From the NCBI GenBank assembly GCA_000433035.1, contig FR890814.1, positions 5,443-69,442 on the forward strand: DNA of 64,000 nucleotides. The letters are read 5' to 3'. The notes under the pieces were generated by a model. That model was not told the origin of the DNA and did no database searches. It saw nothing but the letters and a program-made list of their open reading frames with translations. The position numbers and the translations under genes were made by a program. This DNA is from Staphylococcus sp. CAG:324 (GTDB taxonomy: Bacteria; Bacillota_I; Bacilli_A; ML615J-28; CAG-313). The first letter of the stretch is position 1. Each line of letters begins with the position of its first letter. Shown one piece after another: positions 8,623 to 16,383 of this stretch.

Positions 8623-10011
8623 ATGTCAGAAAACAAAAATTTAATTCTTGATGCAAATGATCGTCCAGAAATTGGTAAATGGTTTGCATTAAGTTTCCAA
8701 CACGTCTTTGCAATGTTTAGTGCCACGGTATTAGTACCTTTATTAACTGGTTTACCAATATCCACTGCTCTATTTGCCTCAGGAATTGGAACACTCATTT
8801 ACATCTTATGTACGAAATCAAAAGTACCAATTTATCTCGGATCTAGTTTTGCCTATATTTCATATATTCAGACTGCTAAATTAGCATCGGGAAATAATTT
8901 TGGCTCTGCTTTAACAGGTCTAGTTATTGTAGGTCTTGTTTATGTTGTTGTCGCTTTAATTATTAAAATTGTTGGAGTTAACTGGTTAAATAAATTATTA
9001 CCTCCTGTTGTTATTGGTCCTACTATTATTGTTATTGGTTTAGGTCTTGCCGCAAATGCTGTAAAAAATGCTGGATTTTATTTTGCGCCAACAACATGTG
9101 AAATTTGTGGTAATACACCAACAGTTTTATATGATTGGCGAATGATTGTCGTATCTATCATTACAATGTTTGTTATTGCTTTTATTTCAATTAAGGCAAA
9201 AGGCTTTTTAAAAGTGATTCCTTTTCTAGTTGGCATTGTCATTGGATTTGCAGTATCTATTTTAATTGGTTTTATCCCTAATAAAGATTGTGGACCATTA
9301 GTTGATTGGCAACCTCTAAAAGAAGTCATTACTCATCCTGCAAATTGGTTTAGATTGCCAGAATTTAAATTTCTTGGCTGGAAAAATGCTGATTTAGGCG
9401 CTGGAATATCAATGGTAAAAATTGATTTTTCAGCTGCAATTTCTGTTATTCCACTTGCTTTTGTGACAATCTGTGAACATATTGGTGATCACAAAGTTTT
9501 AGGTAGTATTACACAAAAAGATTATTTAACAGATCCAGGACTTCATCGTACTCTTCTTGGTGATGGAATTGCTACTGCGGTTGCAGGATGCATTGGTGGT
9601 CCCGCTAATACTTCTTATGGTGAAAATACATCAGTTGTAGGTATGACAAAAATTGGCTCTGTTTGGGTAACGGGGGGAGCCGCTGTAATTGCTATTTTAT
9701 TATCGTTTTGCAATATAATTACAACCTTGATTGCATCTATTCCTGCTGCAGTAATGGGGGGAGTATGTTTAATCCTTTATGGGTTCATTGCTTCAAATGG
9801 ATTAAAAACTCTGATTGATGCTAAAGTAGATATGTCTGATACCAGAAACTTAATTATTGTTTCTGTCATGTTGGTTATTGGTCTTGGTGCTGGTACTTTA
9901 AAGATAACAAATGATATCCAATTTTCAGGTATGGCACTTGCTACAATCTTTGGTATTGTATTAAATCTCACTTTACCAAAAGAATTTGCAAAAAATAAAG
10001 ATAAAAAGTGA
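8623..10011 (+). CDS. pyrP: Uracil permease (NCS2 family, UraA/PyrP-like).
   Basis: SFQHVFAMFSATVLVP, GIGTLIY and KVPIYLGSSFAYIS closely match E. coli UraA motifs. The start was moved to ATG 8623 (MSENK), which is preceded by GGAGG. Confidence 0.8.
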   Translation: MSENKNLILDANDRPEIGKWFALSFQHVFAMFSATVLVPLLTGLPISTALFASGIGTLIYILCTKSKVPIYLGSSFAYISYIQTAKLASGNNFGSALTGLVIVGLVYVVVALIIKIVGVNWLNKLLPPVVIGPTIIVIGLGLAANAVKNAGFYFAPTTCEICGNTPTVLYDWRMIVVSIITMFVIAFISIKAKGFLKVIPFLVGIVIGFAVSILIGFIPNKDCGPLVDWQPLKEVITHPANWFRLPEFKFLGWKNADLGAGISMVKIDFSAAISVIPLAFVTICEHIGDHKVLGSITQKDYLTDPGLHRTLLGDGIATAVAGCIGGPANTSYGENTSVVGMTKIGSVWVTGGAAVIAILLSFCNIITTLIASIPAAVMGGVCLILYGFIASNGLKTLIDAKVDMSDTRNLIIVSVMLVIGLGAGTLKITNDIQFSGMALATIFGIVLNLTLPKEFAKNKDKK

Positions 10012-13049: not shown

Positions 13050-13166
13050 TATCTTCACCATTCCATTCTAAATTTTAATACTAAAAAAAGAAAAAACCCG
13101 ATACAACGGGAAGTGCGCTTTTTTAAGCGCCCTTAATATTATATAAAAAAAGAAATCATTTGTCAA
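13050..13166 (-). promoter_or_regulatory. pyrG promoter (TTGACA-17-TATAAT) and a reiterative-transcription-type leader. The transcript starts GGGCGC, has a 5' hairpin GCGCUU-aaaa-AAGCGC, and carries an intrinsic terminator CCCGUUGUAUCGGG followed by a U-run whose 5' flank is CUUCCC.
   Basis: Minus strand reads TTGACAAATGATTTCTTTTTTTATATAATATTAAGGGCGC...CACTTCCCGTTGTATCGGGTTTTTTCTTTTTTT. This is analogous to the B. subtilis pyrG GGGC leader (Meng, Turnbough & Switzer). Confidence 0.55.
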
Positions 13167-13251
13167 ATAAAATTTAACACATTTTGTCGAAAACGTTTTC
13201 TGATAATTTTTCTTTACTTTTTTTTTTTAATATATTATAATATTAGAGTAA

Positions 13252-13320
13252 AAGTCATATATTTCTGATAATATGGTTCAGAAGTCTCTACATTATCACC
13301 GTAAATGATAATACTATGGT
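13252..13320 (+). ncRNA. Purine riboswitch of the guanine class (C at the discriminator position).
   Basis: UCAUAUA...UCUGA-UAAUAUGGU-UCAGA...AGUCUCUACA...UUAUCA-CCGUAAA-UGAUAA...UAC-UAUGG matches the P1/P2/P3 layout of the xpt G-box. An upstream TATAAT lies at 13236-13241. Confidence 0.6.
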
Positions 13321-13394
13321 AACAATTGAATAATTGCTTAAAAACCGCTGTTATGGCTTTTTACAACAAAAAATTTTTAAGGAGGACTTCTTTA

Positions 13395-14912
13395 ATGGAA
13401 GACAAAAAACAAAAAAATGTTGGGAAGCTCGACAGCTTTTTTGGCGTTTCTAAAGCAGGCTCAACAATTAAAGTAGAAGTGTTAGCTGGTGTTGCAACAT
13501 TTCTTGCGATGGCTTACATCTTAACTGTTAATCCTAATTCTATGTTATGGGGTGGTACAGCAGATGTACGTTGGTCGTCAGTATTTATTGCTACTGCTCT
13601 TGGTGCTGTAATTGGTACTTTATTAATGGCCCTACTTGCTAAAATGCCTCTTGCTCAAGCATCTGGTATGGGATTAAATTCAATGGTTGGTTCTATTCTT
13701 GGTGGAGCATTTGGATTTACCTTCTCATTTGGTAACGCTATGTTACTAATTTTAATTAGTGGTATTATCTTCTTACTTCTTTCTGTAATACCAGCTGGAC
13801 GTGATAAAGAAACCAAAAAATTAATTACTTTAAGAGAATTGATTTTTATTGGTATGCCAAAACCTGTTCGTACCGCAATACCTGTTGGTATTGGTTTATT
13901 TATTGCCTTCATTGGTTTACAAAATTCTCATCTTGTTCAAAATAATGATTTTACTCTTTTACAATTTGTTGATTTTACGCAAGCAGGAGCATGGGCAAAA
14001 GGTGGCGATGCTAGAGCAGCAGTAGTAGCACTTTTTAGTTTTGTTGTCATTGCTGTTCTTTCACATTTTAAAGTCAAAGGTGCCGTTGTTTTTGGTATTC
14101 TTGCCGCAACTTTACTTGCATGGCCATTAGGAGTTACTAATATTGATTATCTTCTTGGTAAAACGGATGGCGTAACTTGGAAATTCTGGGAAAATTTTGC
14201 TAATTTCTTTTCATTTGATCCAAATAATGGTGGTATCTTCGGTGCTGCTTTTACAGAAGGTTTTAACTTTCCAAAAGATTCTTTGATGACATGTGTAATG
14301 TTAATTATTACTTTTGCAATGATTGATATGTTTGATACAATGGGTACAGTTGTTGGATGCTGTGCTAATGCTAATTTATTAGACGAAAATGGTGTTCCAA
14401 AAAATTATGATAAAATCATGCTATCAGATTCAGTTGCTACATGTACTGGTGCAATCTTAGGTACTTCAACGGTTACAACTTTTGTTGAATCTGGTGCTGG
14501 TGTTGCAGCAGGTGGAAAAACAGGTTTAACTGCTTTAGTTACTGCTATCTTATTCTTATTATCAATTTTCTTATTACCAGTATTTGCTTTTATTCCAAGT
14601 GCAGCAGCAGCAGGTGCTTTATTATATGTTGGTGTATTAATGATGTCTAATGTTAAAAATATTGATTTCTCATCACCTAAATCTGCCGTTCCTGCTTTTG
14701 TTACAATTGCAATGATGCCTTTTGCCTATTCAATTACTGATGGTATTGGTCTTGGTCTTATAACTTATGTTATTATTTCAATATTTACTTTCTTTATAGA
14801 TTTGATTAAATATGCTTGTCATAAAGGTGAAAAACCTAAATGGGATATTTCAGTTGTAGCTATTATAGTAACTGCGTTATTCTTAGTATATTTCTTAGTT
14901 CCAACTGTTTAA
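13395..14912 (+). CDS. pbuG: Guanine/hypoxanthine permease (NCS2/AzgA-PbuG family).
   Basis: VSKAGSTIKVEVLAGVATFLAMAYILTVNP is the AzgA/PbuG N-terminal signature. RBS GGAGG lies 9 nt upstream of the ATG at 13395. Confidence 0.75.
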   Translation: MEDKKQKNVGKLDSFFGVSKAGSTIKVEVLAGVATFLAMAYILTVNPNSMLWGGTADVRWSSVFIATALGAVIGTLLMALLAKMPLAQASGMGLNSMVGSILGGAFGFTFSFGNAMLLILISGIIFLLLSVIPAGRDKETKKLITLRELIFIGMPKPVRTAIPVGIGLFIAFIGLQNSHLVQNNDFTLLQFVDFTQAGAWAKGGDARAAVVALFSFVVIAVLSHFKVKGAVVFGILAATLLAWPLGVTNIDYLLGKTDGVTWKFWENFANFFSFDPNNGGIFGAAFTEGFNFPKDSLMTCVMLIITFAMIDMFDTMGTVVGCCANANLLDENGVPKNYDKIMLSDSVATCTGAILGTSTVTTFVESGAGVAAGGKTGLTALVTAILFLLSIFLLPVFAFIPSAAAAGALLYVGVLMMSNVKNIDFSSPKSAVPAFVTIAMMPFAYSITDGIGLGLITYVIISIFTFFIDLIKYACHKGEKPKWDISVVAIIVTALFLVYFLVPTV

Positions 14913-15018: not shown

Positions 15019-16383
15019 ATGATTGTTGCAAATGATAAACAATATTTATTTGAAAAAATGAAAGTTCCTAAAGCGGTGATGTATTTAGTCATTCCAACAA
15101 TAATTAGTCAGTTAATAACAATTATTTATAATTGGGCTGATATCTTTTTTGTTGGACAACTAAACGATACATTTCAAATGGCTGCTATTACTATTTGTTA
15201 CCCAGCTTTTATGATGACAACTGCCCTTTCTAATTTGCTTGGTATTGGTGGTGCAAGTGCCATATCTAGAGCTCTTGGCAATAATAATTATGATAAAATT
15301 AAAAAAATATCTACGATGAGTCTTTTATTATCAATTATTTTATCCATTTTATATTCTTTAATCGTATTCGCATTAAACAAACCACTTCTATATTTGTTAG
15401 GTGCTGACAATGATACCATTCATTTTGCTGAAGAATATTTATTTTGGGTAGTTATAATCGGTTCCTTACCATCTGTTGTAAATTATAGTCTTTCTCATTT
15501 AATTAGAGCAACAGGAAAATCTCAATCTGCAAGTATTGGTATTGCTATGGGAGGAATTATAAATATAATTTTAGATCCTCTCTTTATTTTTGTTTTTAAA
15601 TTAAATGTAACTGGTGCTGCAATTGCTACCTTCATCTCTAATTTGCTTGCTTGTATATACTTCATCGTTTATTTAATAATTACTAGAAAAACTTCCATTT
15701 TAAATTTCTCACTTAAAAATTTAAAATGGAAAGATAAAGTAATTTTTGATATTATATCTTCTGGTCTTTCAAGCTTTTTTCTATCTTTGATGGCTCTTTT
15801 TAGTAATGCTTCTATTAACAAATTAATGTCTAGTTATAGTGCCTCAGCAATTTCAGGGGTTAATATTGCTAAAAAAGTTGATCTTTGTATTATTGCCTTT
15901 GCTCAAGGTTTTGCCCAAGGTATCCTTCCACTTATTGGATATAATTTTGCGGCAAAAAATGATAAACGTATGAAGAAAATTATTCGCTTTAGTATGATTG
16001 TATCTATTACGTTTGCAGGAATATGTGTTATTCTATTTAGTATTTTTCCTAAACAAATTGTTTCCATTTTTATTAAGGATGAACAAACAGTTACATATGC
16101 TAGCAATTTTTTAAGAATTTTATGTATAAGTATGCCCCTTACTTCAATGATTTTTATTTTTAATACTATTTTTCAAGCAACAAAACAAACTATTCGTGCT
16201 TTAATGACGATTCTTCTTCGTAAAGGATTGATTGATATTCCTCTTATGATTTTACTAAATCATTATATCCCTATATATGGTATTGTAATTTCTCAACCGA
16301 TTGTTGATTGTTCTGCTTCTATCATTGCCATTATTTTATACATTACTTTTATTAAAAAACAAAAGATGCAAAATAATAACTAA
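15019..16383 (+). CDS. MATE family efflux transporter.
   Basis: 12-TM profile and a MATE N-terminal motif (PTIISQLITIIYNWADIFFVGQL). Confidence 0.7.
   Translation: MIVANDKQYLFEKMKVPKAVMYLVIPTIISQLITIIYNWADIFFVGQLNDTFQMAAITICYPAFMMTTALSNLLGIGGASAISRALGNNNYDKIKKISTMSLLLSIILSILYSLIVFALNKPLLYLLGADNDTIHFAEEYLFWVVIIGSLPSVVNYSLSHLIRATGKSQSASIGIAMGGIINIILDPLFIFVFKLNVTGAAIATFISNLLACIYFIVYLIITRKTSILNFSLKNLKWKDKVIFDIISSGLSSFFLSLMALFSNASINKLMSSYSASAISGVNIAKKVDLCIIAFAQGFAQGILPLIGYNFAAKNDKRMKKIIRFSMIVSITFAGICVILFSIFPKQIVSIFIKDEQTVTYASNFLRILCISMPLTSMIFIFNTIFQATKQTIRALMTILLRKGLIDIPLMILLNHYIPIYGIVISQPIVDCSASIIAIILYITFIKKQKMQNNN

What the first reader, a model, noticed from the sequence alone, without database searches (positions are those of the whole stretch)
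13252..13320. Guanine-class purine riboswitch controlling a PbuG/AzgA permease, sharing a 330-bp divergent control region with the pyrG attenuator
All conserved purine-riboswitch elements are present: UAUA, P2 UCUGA/UCAGA with an AUAUGG loop, AGUCUCUACA, P3 UUAUCA/UGAUAA with a CCGUAAA loop, and the 3' P1 strand UAUGG. The discriminator immediately 5' of UAUGG is C, so guanine/hypoxanthine is sensed rather than adenine, matching the transporter family.

I could not confidently fold the expression platform (13321-13394). A weak GGC-U5 element lies at ~13360. The switch may act on termination or on translation.
Basis: partly seen in the sequence, partly recalled or inferred. Interest (0 to 1): 0.5.

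Follow-up and report, generated by a model that had tools for sequence, protein, structure and literature searches.

The report
Guanine riboswitch with terminator inside gene
This is a genuine but ordinary guanine-sensing riboswitch in front of a purine-uptake gene of an uncultured gut bacterium; its one unusual feature is that the likely "off" hairpin is built partly from the first codons of the gene it controls.

Summary
Rfam RF00167 (Purine) matches 13235-13336 (+) at 76.8 bits, against a gathering score of 37. The pocket residues are those of the guanine-I class (U22, U47, U51, C74 = 13314). The downstream gene (13395-14912) is an AzgA/AZG-type NCS2 purine permease. 38 of 80 related permease loci carry the aptamer, and covariation among them supports P1, P2 and P3.

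A conserved block (13344-13368) has two alternative partners:
- Both strands of P1 plus the 5' end, giving a four-way junction that destroys the pocket.
- Codons 8-14 (13418-13436), giving an 18-bp helix (-20 kcal/mol) that loops out the SD and AUG and ends directly at a U6 tract made of two Phe codons.

Those codons are rare ones, kept across the clade. Relatives that have a normal leader terminator encode the same peptide with common codons.

Best reading: a guanine-OFF transcription attenuator (about 0.6). This helix shows no covariation, and nothing has been tested experimentally. The "GGC-U5" element is part of the switching block, not a terminator. The pyrG attenuator reading is supported. 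This is a new member of a known kind, of modest interest.

The parts
13213..13241 (+). Promoter of the riboswitch-permease transcript: -35 TTTACT (13213-18), 17-nt spacer, -10 TATAAT (13236-41).
   Evidence: Consensus scan, 10 of 12. The -10 and the -35 'TTTAC' are kept in all clade members.
13248..13248 (+). Inferred transcription start (G), 7 nt after the -10.
   Evidence: Inference. In relatives, the 5-6 nt between the -10 and this G vary freely, while G(U/A)(A/G)AAAG... is conserved from exactly this base onward.
13254..13320 (+). Guanine-I aptamer. P1 13254-59/13315-20; P2 13263-69/13277-83; P3 13292-98/13306-12; L2 13270-76; L3 13299-13305; J2/3 13284-91. Discriminator C74 = 13314.
   Evidence: RF00167 at 76.8 bits. 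Covariation across 41 related aptamers.
13323..13336 (+). Small linker hairpin CAAUU-GAAU-AAUUG. Its sequence varies among orthologs, but a hairpin is predicted there in nearly every ortholog.
   Evidence: Constrained folds of 13 orthologs.
13344..13368 (+). Switching block ACCGCUGUUAUGGCUUUUUACAACA. Positions 13344-51 can pair with J3/1 plus the P1 3' strand (13313-20). Positions 13352-64 can pair with the P1 5' strand plus the 5' end (13248-59). Positions 13347-68 can alternatively pair with codons 8-14.
   Evidence: The block is invariant in 9 species while the adjacent linker diverges. MFE and centroid folds. Block-shuffle controls.
13379..13397 (+). Shine-Dalgarno AAGGAGG (13379-85) and the start codon ATG (13395-97). 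Both lie in the 49-nt loop of the proposed terminator.
   Evidence: Sequence. ORF frame. Fold.
13418..13436 (+). 3' strand of the proposed terminator, UGUUGGGAAGCUCGACAGC, spanning the last base of codon 8 through codon 14 (Asn-Val-Gly-Lys-Leu-Asp-Ser). It contains five consecutive rare codons: GGG AAG CUC GAC AGC.
   Evidence: Pair list. Codon frequencies 6%, 15%, 1.3%, 7% and 5%. Recoding controls: 4 of 5000, and rank 56 of 4608. Natural control in relatives.
13437..13442 (+). U6 tract (Phe-Phe codons UUU UUU) directly after the closing G13347-C13436 pair.
   Evidence: Sequence. The tract is uninterrupted in all 13 clade sequences, but TTC-interrupted in 12 of 15 relatives that have leader terminators.
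13395..14912 (+). Regulated gene: an AzgA/AZG-type NCS2 purine permease of 505 aa.
   Evidence: PF00860 at 107 bits. PDB AZG1/AZG2 at E 1.7e-52. Named 'NCS2 family permease' by source databases.
13083..13166 (-). Divergent pyrG promoter and attenuator. TTGACA-17-TATAAT (13166-13138); GGGC start (13132-29); hairpin GCGCUU/AAGCGC; pyrimidine tract CUUCCC (13113-08); terminator CCCG/CGGG (13110-13097) followed by U6CU7.
   Evidence: 12-of-12 promoter match. Conserved with compensatory stem changes in L002, L003, L004, L015 and L030. Mechanism as described for B. subtilis (PMC7039003).

Best explanation
A guanine-I riboswitch switches off an AzgA-type purine permease when guanine (or hypoxanthine) is plentiful, most likely by transcription attenuation.

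Shown:
- The aptamer has the canonical guanine pocket.
- A conserved 25-nt block downstream of the aptamer (13344-68) is complementary to two mutually exclusive partners.

Inferred mechanism:
- Without ligand, the weak 6-bp P1 (two wobble pairs) is invaded as soon as the block is transcribed. Positions 13344-51 pair with J3/1 plus the P1 3' strand, including C74. Positions 13352-64 pair with the P1 5' strand and the 5' end.
- The result is a four-way junction (with P2 and P3) that acts as an antiterminator, so RNA polymerase reads on.
- With ligand bound, P1 is locked and the block stays free for about 50 nt more of transcription.
- The free block then pairs with codons 8-14 (13418-36). This forms a -20 kcal/mol hairpin that loops out the SD and AUG and abuts the U6 tract (13437-42), and transcription stops about 48 nt into the ORF.
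For: - Aptamer: RF00167 at 76.8 bits, with covariation. The pocket residues match the literature definitions.
- No leader terminator. All 28 aptamer-bearing relatives outside this clade have a canonical leader terminator (-5 to -21 kcal/mol); the 10 clade sequences have none better than -1.7.
- The apo fold. For the transcript up to 13378, the MFE is the four-way junction: -18.6 for the explicit structure against -7.5 for the aptamer alone. Only 19 of 1000 block shuffles fold as well.
- The holo fold. With the early ORF included and the aptamer enforced, the block pairs with 13418-36 in all 13 distinct orthologs. The two states differ by only -4.4 to +3.5 kcal/mol.
- The hairpin 13347-13436 is both the MFE and the centroid of 13340-13445, at -20.2.
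- Specificity of block x ORF pairing. The duplex energy is -17.7. It is reached by 17 of 5000 shuffled blocks, and by 7 of 25,590 other 25-nt windows of the 64-kb sequence (one of them the block itself), once the trivial antisense matches are set aside.
- Codon evidence. Five consecutive rare codons are used. Only 4 of 5000 usage-weighted synonymous recodings pair as well, and the real sequence ranks 56th of 4608 among all recodings.
- Natural control. 15 relatives with leader terminators encode the same (G/S)KLD(S)FF motif with AAA, TTA/CTT/TTG, GAT and TCT/TCA, mostly with an interrupted TTC TTT. The clade always uses AAG, CTC/CTT/CTA, GAC, AGC/AGT and TTT TTT.
- Variants. Block variants in L097-L099 keep both pairings through register shifts. 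In L098, A3-U becomes G3-C in the outer 5'-end helix, a compensatory change.
- Logic. An OFF switch matches the classical P1-3'-strand/terminator designs in sister lineages.
Against: - The block x ORF helix shows no Watson-Crick covariation. 15 of its 18 pairs never vary, and the shuffle control is uninformative. Support rests on conservation, codon usage and controls.
- The whole-hairpin fold is only modestly better than dinucleotide shuffles (z = -1.49, 12 of 200).
- A 49-nt loop is large for an intrinsic terminator.
- The ORF segment can also form a local 7-bp hairpin (-4.7 kcal/mol, 2 nt before the U-tract). That hairpin could explain part of the codon bias and could cause ligand-independent termination.
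- Nearest-neighbour energies ignore ligand binding and tertiary contacts.
- The transcription start is inferred.
- There are no experimental data for this organism.
Confidence: 0.6

Rival explanations
1. Same aptamer and the same two folds, but the output is post-transcriptional rather than termination. Either the ligand-state helix, which ties -27 to +24 around the ribosome-binding site, lowers translation initiation, or sequestering the 5'-terminal nucleotides in the apo four-way junction protects the mRNA from 5'-end-dependent decay. Both would again give guanine-OFF.
For: - The outer 5'-end helix reaches nucleotide +1, and its partner bases lie beyond the U5 run. It shows a compensatory change in L098 and a paired deletion in the L006 type, which points to a role in the full-length RNA.
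- The SD and AUG sit inside the loop of the long helix.
Against: - The computed SD accessibility hardly differs between the two states (0.59 against 0.46 unpaired). That fold stopped 18 nt after the start codon, so it did not contain the block x ORF helix. In the folds that do contain it, the SD and AUG lie in the helix's loop and are not paired with either strand.
- No anti-SD sequence exists in the leader.
- The helix ends exactly at an uninterrupted U6, which the clade keeps although relatives interrupt it. A translational device has no need for that.
Confidence: 0.2
2. Guanine-ON switch. Without ligand, the distal strand UAUGGC (13352-57) displaces the proximal P1 3' strand, and this long-range helix followed by U5 (13358-62) acts as a terminator. 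Bound guanine locks P1 and allows read-through.
For: - The distal strand abuts a U5 run.
- An A-tract precedes the 5' strand.
- The alternative helix is more stable than P1.
Against: - The stem next to the U-run has only 6 bp (2 G-C, 1 G.U) and encloses about 92 nt.
- The U-run shrinks to U4 or U2 in L006, L098, L099 and L100, while complementarity to the 5' end is kept.
- This model leaves the rare-codon segment and its complementarity to the block unexplained.
- The logic is opposite to that of all sister lineages.
Confidence: 0.07
3. The aptamer senses a purine derivative other than guanine or hypoxanthine (xanthine, 2'-deoxyguanosine, 8-oxoguanine), as some guanine-like variants do.
For: Rare variant classes hide inside RF00167 (PMC9295807, PMC10556655). 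Binding was not measured here.
Against: - None of the changes that those papers use to define the xanthine-II and 8-oxoguanine classes is present. U51 is not G, and there are no insertions in J2/3 or J3/1 (xanthine-II). U47 is present (8-oxoG riboswitches lack it). C74 is not U (adenine). The changes that define the 2'-deoxyguanosine classes were not looked up, so that class was not compared residue by residue.
- The gene association, a purine-base permease, is the classic guanine-riboswitch association.
Confidence: 0.05
4. Decayed expression platform. The clade lost its leader terminator, the aptamer no longer regulates anything, and the pairings found are by-products of low-complexity A/U- and purine-rich sequence.
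For: - The overall leader fold is not better than shuffles (z = -1.07).
- The long helix shows no covariation.
Against: - The aptamer and the block are invariant across species whose permeases are only 80-95% identical, with 58-69% codon identity at conserved residues, while the linker between them diverges with indels.
- The rare codons are retained clade-wide.
Confidence: 0.05

Closest known systems
Guanine-I riboswitch (Rfam RF00167 Purine; B. subtilis xpt-pbuX, pbuG, purE leaders)
   Same: - Three-way junction with an L2-L3 loop-loop kiss (AAUAUGG / CCGUAAA).
- Pocket residues U22, U47, U51, C74, and the same junction lengths.
- Sits upstream of a purine-base transporter.
- OFF logic inferred, as for B. 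subtilis pbuG. C48 is also shared with B. subtilis pbuG (PMC2018637).
   Different: - There is no terminator between the aptamer and the start codon.
- P1 is short (6 bp, two of them wobble).
- The antiterminator uses both P1 strands plus the 5' terminus, instead of only the 3' strand.
- The 3' half and the U-tract of the proposed terminator are coding sequence.
Classical leader terminator/antiterminator platforms in sister lineages of the same permease (e.g. L014, L031, L009)
   Same: Same aptamer, same orthologous gene, same peptide motif KLDSFF at the N-terminus. The P1 3' strand pairs with the 5' strand of the terminator as an antiterminator.
   Different: In those lineages the whole terminator (-5 to -21 kcal/mol, followed by a U-rich tail such as UUUUUUAUUUU) lies 23-126 nt (mostly 30-45 nt) upstream of the start codon, and the N-terminal codons are the common A/T-rich ones.
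pbuE (ydhL) adenine riboswitch of B. subtilis (from my own knowledge)
   Same: The expression platform works by strand invasion of the aptamer's P1 (and beyond) unless ligand locks it. The decision is kinetic and co-transcriptional.
   Different: In pbuE the invading strand builds the terminator itself (an ON switch), and the aptamer carries U74. Here the invasion builds the antiterminator (an OFF switch), and the aptamer carries C74.
B. subtilis pyrG attenuator (CTP-sensitive reiterative transcription), for the divergent neighbour
   Same: GGGC initially transcribed region just downstream of a consensus promoter. Pyrimidine-rich 5' flank of a terminator hairpin followed by a U-run. Lies upstream of CTP synthase (PMC7039003).
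   Different: An extra 5' hairpin (GCGCUU/AAGCGC) lies between GGGC and the terminator. The base at -1 differs from B. subtilis. Not tested here beyond sequence and conservation.

Membership tests
Purine riboswitch aptamer (Rfam RF00167) | Covariance-model score at or above the curated gathering score (37 bits). | tested here: met
   76.8 bits, E 6e-12, full-length match 13235-13336.
Purine riboswitch aptamer (Rfam RF00167) | Three-way junction P1/P2/P3 with 7-nt loops able to form the L2-L3 kiss (GG of L2 with CC of L3). | tested here: met
   P1 6 bp, P2 7 bp, P3 7 bp; L2 AAUAUGG, L3 CCGUAAA. Helices covary in 41 relatives, with 95.3% of cells paired.
Guanine-I class (as opposed to adenine, xanthine-II, 8-oxoG, 2'-dG variants) | C at position 74 (Watson-Crick partner of the ligand); U would indicate adenine. 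| tested here: met
   C at 13314, immediately 5' of UAUGG. C in all 16 aligned relatives. Criterion from PMC10556655.
Guanine-I class (as opposed to adenine, xanthine-II, 8-oxoG, 2'-dG variants) | U22, U47 and U51 present, with no insertions in J2/3 or J3/1. | tested here: met
   U22 = 13260; J2/3 GUCUCUAC is 8 nt, with U47 = 13285 and U51 = 13289; J3/1 is AC. Criteria from PMC9295807 and PMC10556655. U24 and C48 lie within the natural W / H consensus (PMC2018637).
Guanine-I class | Binds guanine or hypoxanthine with high affinity and selectivity. | not testable with these tools
   Needs in-line probing, ITC or a 2-aminopurine assay on a transcript of about 13248-13325.
Transcription-attenuating (terminator/antiterminator) riboswitch | A stable hairpin immediately followed by a U-tract, mutually exclusive with a ligand-free alternative structure. 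| tested here: inconclusive
   Hairpin 13347-13436 (-20.2 kcal/mol) abuts U6 13437-42 and competes with the four-way junction. However, the loop is 49 nt, the helix shows no covariation, and termination itself cannot be tested here.
AzgA/AZG subfamily of NCS2 purine permeases (regulated gene) | Sequence homology over the whole transporter domain to characterised adenine/guanine/hypoxanthine permeases. | tested here: met
   PF00860 at 107 bits. PDB AZG1 8irl at E 1.7e-52 and AZG2 9j12 at E 2e-48. No NCBIfam equivalog hit, so substrate specificity is inferred.
pyrG reiterative-transcription attenuator (neighbour, - strand) | GGGC initially transcribed region, plus a pyrimidine-rich 5' strand of a downstream terminator hairpin. 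| tested here: met
   GGGC at 13132-29, 5 nt after a 12-of-12 promoter. CUUCCC at 13113-08 leads into CCCG/CGGG followed by a U-run. Conserved in 5 relatives with compensatory stem changes. Criteria from PMC7039003. G-insertion itself is not testable here.

The most novel reading that the evidence does not exclude
The expression platform may be an arrangement not described for purine riboswitches. Its antiterminator would be a four-way junction in which one 25-nt block captures both strands of P1 and the 5' terminus. Its terminator would have its 3' strand and U-tract formed by codons 8-16 of the regulated ORF, so that riboswitch function dictates five rare codons and an uninterrupted Phe-Phe UUUUUU in the gene. 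If so, pipelines and reporter designs that stop at the start codon would misclassify this kind of switch as 'no terminator / translational'.
Probability: 0.55. Interest if true: 0.45.

Novelty: new member of a known kind. Interest (0 to 1): 0.35.

Why it matters
As a riboswitch call, this adds one more guanine-I member, in an uncultured human-gut Mollicutes/Bacilli lineage (closest records: UMGS116 and HGM10901). It regulates the expected kind of gene, so it is routine for annotation.

The useful point is methodological. The regulatory decision element appears to extend 48 nt into the coding sequence. This has three consequences:
- It explains a striking run of rare codons.
- It shows that expression platforms can impose synonymous-site constraint on the regulated gene.
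- It warns that classifying platforms from the 5' UTR alone, or building reporters fused at the start codon, can miss the terminator.

The locus also gives a compact example of two metabolite-sensing RNA attenuators, one for purine and one for CTP, driven from back-to-back promoters.

Tried and rejected
- GGC-U5 (13355-62) as a terminator: the only local stem is 3 bp (GCU/GGC). The terminator search found nothing better than -1.7 kcal/mol in the leader of any clade member. Rejected.
- SD sequestration: no anti-SD sequence exists in the leader, and SD accessibility is similar in both states. I noticed by eye a pairing of AGAAGUCU (13281-88) with GGACUUCU (13384-91), but it never appears in MFE or centroid folds, so I dropped it.
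- A hairpin GUAACA (13319-24) / UGUUAU (13349-54): not conserved in L001 or L004. Rejected.
- ACAAC (13364-68) as a stand-alone antiterminator against the local ORF hairpin: absorbed into the full 18-bp helix model.
- Metagenome scan with the exact P3/L3/P1 string: 16 loci, all identical to species already in hand.
- Looking for covariation in the block x ORF helix: 15 of 18 pairs are invariant. Six further clade members recovered through the protein search gave register shifts and one compensatory change in the 5'-end helix, but no clean double substitutions in the terminator helix.
- Rfam E-value scan of the intergenic region for a pyrG-leader or other family: only chance-level hits.
- NCBIfam naming of the permease: no hit.
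- My first regex for aptamers in relatives was too strict (13 of 80). It was superseded by CM searches (38 of 80).
- Literature search for a precedent of a riboswitch terminator inside the ORF: nothing directly comparable in the four papers found. Absence from this limited library is not evidence of novelty.

Full report
**1. The observation**

An Rfam scan of the whole 64-kb window returns a single hit above gathering. It is RF00167 (Purine riboswitch aptamer) at 13235-13336 on the + strand: 76.8 bits against a gathering score of 37, E 6e-12, matching the full model (reproduced).

Read against the cmscan alignment and the sequence, the elements are:
- P1: GUCAUA 13254-59 / UAUGGU 13315-20.
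- J1/2: UAU 13260-62.
- P2: 13263-69 / 13277-83, with loop AAUAUGG.
- J2/3: GUCUCUAC 13284-91.
- P3: 13292-98 / 13306-12, with loop CCGUAAA.
- J3/1: AC 13313-14.

Both of its refutation criteria fail: the score is above threshold, and P1 can form.

**2. Ligand class**

The base 5' of UAUGG is C (13314 = C74). U22 (13260), U47 (13285) and U51 (13289) are present, and J2/3 and J3/1 have the canonical lengths. The literature separates guanine-I from its variants as follows:
- Adenine riboswitches carry C74U.
- Xanthine-II riboswitches carry U51G plus junction insertions.
- 8-oxoguanine riboswitches have lost U47 (PMC9295807, PMC10556655).

None of these changes is present. The two differences from B. 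subtilis xpt are U24 and C48. Both lie inside the natural consensus (position 24 = A/U; position 48 = anything but G; B. subtilis pbuG itself has C48) (PMC2018637). Binding itself cannot be tested here.

**3. Context**

A sigma-70-type promoter (TTTACT-17-TATAAT, 13213-41) precedes the aptamer. In relatives, the bases between the -10 and a conserved G vary, and conservation starts exactly at that G (13248). I take this G as the transcription start; this is an inference.

The gene behind the aptamer has SD AAGGAGG at 13379-85 and ATG at 13395, and ends at 14912. It is an NCS2 permease (PF00860, 107 bits). Its closest solved relatives are the Arabidopsis adenine/guanine permeases AZG1 and AZG2 (E 1.7e-52).

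The nearest genomes are uncultured human-gut Mollicutes/Bacilli MAGs.

**4. Relatives**

Of 80 related permease loci, 38 carry the aptamer directly upstream. All 16 aptamers aligned have C at the discriminator. On the aligned aptamers, 95.3% of cells are paired and 18 of 20 pairs show changes on both sides. Slid controls give 27-43%. The alignment was fitted to the model, so these figures lean towards the structure.

**5. The expression platform**

A terminator search shows a sharp split. All 28 aptamer-bearing relatives outside the window's clade have a canonical hairpin plus U-run in the leader (-5 to -21 kcal/mol). The 10 clade sequences have nothing better than -1.7 kcal/mol.

Within the clade, a block ACCGCUGUUAUGGCUUUUUACAACA (13344-68) is invariant, while the linker before it changes by substitutions and indels.

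Folding the transcript up to 13378 pairs this block with both strands of P1:
- 13352-57 with the P1 5' strand (13254-59).
- 13359-64 with the 5'-terminal GUAAAA (13248-53).
- 13344-51 with J3/1 plus the P1 3' strand (13313-20), which puts C74 opposite G13350.

Together with P2 and P3, this is a four-way junction. It scores -18.6 kcal/mol, against -7.5 for the aptamer alone. Only 19 of 1000 block shuffles give as stable a leader.

**6. The second partner**

When the first codons are included and the aptamer is enforced (mimicking the ligand-bound state), the same block pairs with 13418-36. The pairs are 13347-52 x 13431-36, 13355-61 x 13423-29 and 13364-68 x 13418-22. This 18-bp helix is both the MFE and the centroid of 13340-13445 (-20.2 kcal/mol; z = -1.49 against shuffles). 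It loops out the SD and AUG, and its closing G-C pair is followed directly by UUUUUU (13437-42), which is two Phe codons.

The same two states are recovered in all 13 distinct clade sequences, and their energies differ by only -4.4 to +3.5 kcal/mol. A ligand could tip a difference of that size.

**7. Is the block-ORF complementarity real?**

- The paired ORF segment uses five consecutive rare codons: GGG 6%, AAG 15%, CUC 1.3%, GAC 7%, AGC 5% of their synonymous families in this 27%-GC window.
- Only 4 of 5000 usage-weighted synonymous recodings pair with the block as well as the real sequence does (-17.7 kcal/mol). Among all 4608 recodings, the real one ranks 56th.
- 17 of 5000 shuffled blocks do as well. 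Among 25,590 25-nt windows of the 64 kb, only 7 do as well apart from the trivial antisense, and one of the 7 is the block itself.
- Natural control: fifteen relatives that keep a leader terminator encode the same (G/S)KLD(S)FF motif with AAA, TTA/CTT/TTG, GAT and TCT/TCA, usually with TTC TTT. All clade members use AAG, CTC/CTT/CTA, GAC, AGC/AGT and an uninterrupted TTT TTT.
- Codon identity to the window at conserved residues is 37/43 in codons 8-16, against 58-69% elsewhere in the gene.

**8. Limits**

- The long helix shows no Watson-Crick covariation. 15 of its 18 pairs never vary, and the shuffle control is uninformative.
- New clade members recovered through the protein search change the block in L097-L099. 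They keep both pairings by register shifts, and by A53-U30 or U54-A30 pairs created by synonymous Leu-codon changes. Clean double substitutions occur only in the 5'-end helix (A3-U to G3-C in L098).
- The ORF segment can also fold locally (7 bp, -4.7 kcal/mol, 2 nt before the U-tract). This may explain part of the codon bias and may leak termination.
- A 49-nt loop is large for an intrinsic terminator.

**9. Mechanism**

I commit to a guanine-OFF attenuator.
- Without ligand, the block invades the weak P1 as soon as it is made. That is about 50 nt before its ORF partner exists. It is then locked into the four-way junction, and the polymerase passes the U6 tract.
- With guanine bound, P1 resists invasion. 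The block stays free, pairs with codons 8-14, and transcription stops about 48 nt into the ORF.

Shown: the aptamer, the two complementarities, their conservation, and the codon anomaly. Inferred: the start site, the order of events, and termination itself. Confidence is about 0.6.

Rivals:
- The same folds acting on translation or on 5'-end-dependent decay (0.2).
- An ON switch using the distal strand plus U5 as terminator (0.07). The shrinking U-run in L006, L098, L099 and L100 contradicts this, and it leaves the codon evidence unexplained.
- A different ligand (0.05).
- A decayed platform (0.05).

**10. The pyrG side**

On the - strand, a 12-of-12 promoter (13166-13138) is followed 5 nt later by GGGC (13132-29). 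Then come a hairpin, a pyrimidine tract CUUCCC, and a CCCG/CGGG stem with U6CU7, ahead of CTP synthase (NCBIfam PyrG, 813 bits). These are the two cis-elements required for CTP-sensitive reiterative-transcription control of B. subtilis pyrG (PMC7039003). They are conserved, with compensatory stem changes, in five relatives.

Two details differ. The shared region is 345 bp rather than 330. The pairing with pyrG is not universal in the clade, since PFK is upstream in L097, L100 and L102.

**11. Verdict**

This is a correct call of a known riboswitch class in a new, uncultured lineage. It is a member by every testable criterion, so the novelty rating is 'new member of a known kind'.

The expression platform is the interesting part, and it is only computationally supported. 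Interest is 0.35. The most novel reading not excluded is a terminator encoded by the regulated ORF plus a two-strand P1-capture antiterminator (probability 0.55, interest 0.45 if true).

Noticed in passing
window 13189-13200: Perfect 12-bp palindrome GAAAACGTTTTC about 13 nt upstream of the -35 of the riboswitch promoter. The core AAAnCGTTTTCT is kept at the same distance in nearly all 12 clade members (L098 has CA for the central CG), including those without pyrG upstream. Its shape resembles LacI-family (PurR/CcpA-type) operators, which suggests a protein-level control layer on top of the riboswitch. It occurs only once in the window and is not enriched.
   Followed up: partly
window 13083-13166 (- strand): pyrG leader with a consensus promoter, GGGC start, an extra 5' hairpin GCGCUU/AAGCGC, pyrimidine tract CUUCCC, and a short GC terminator followed by U6CU7. 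It is conserved with compensatory changes in L002, L003, L004, L015 and L030. It fits the B. subtilis CTP-sensitive reiterative-transcription attenuator (PMC7039003).
   Followed up: partly
window 13387-13401: Small hairpin CUUCU/GGAAG that holds the AUG in its loop and stem. It is predicted in both riboswitch states and retained, with sequence changes, in the orthologs folded. It may tune translation independently of the ligand.
   Followed up: no
L007 5778-5879 (-) and L041 5605-5706 (-): A second purine aptamer lies downstream of the permease on the opposite strand in these relatives (90 and 89 bits with my model). Another purine-regulated gene therefore converges on the permease locus there.
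   Followed up: no
L030 (Acholeplasmatales UBA11505) 2344-2551: This permease is only about 65-68% identical to the window's protein. Yet its promoter-proximal leader, aptamer, block and first 17 codons are almost identical to the window's. That suggests either very strong constraint on the regulatory module or its exchange between lineages.
   Followed up: no
window 8623-10011 and 15019-16383: A second NCS2 transporter lies upstream: uracil-permease-like, 368 bits to NF007995 but below its cut-off. A MATE efflux gene starts 106 nt after the permease and is syntenic in L097-L099. No Rfam element precedes either gene. Whether the MATE gene is co-transcribed with the permease is unknown.
   Followed up: no
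L103, L104 (permeases 73-74% identical): These nearest out-clade relatives have no purine aptamer at all in their short leaders. The permease has therefore gained or lost riboswitch control repeatedly among close lineages: 38 of 80 loci have it.
   Followed up: no
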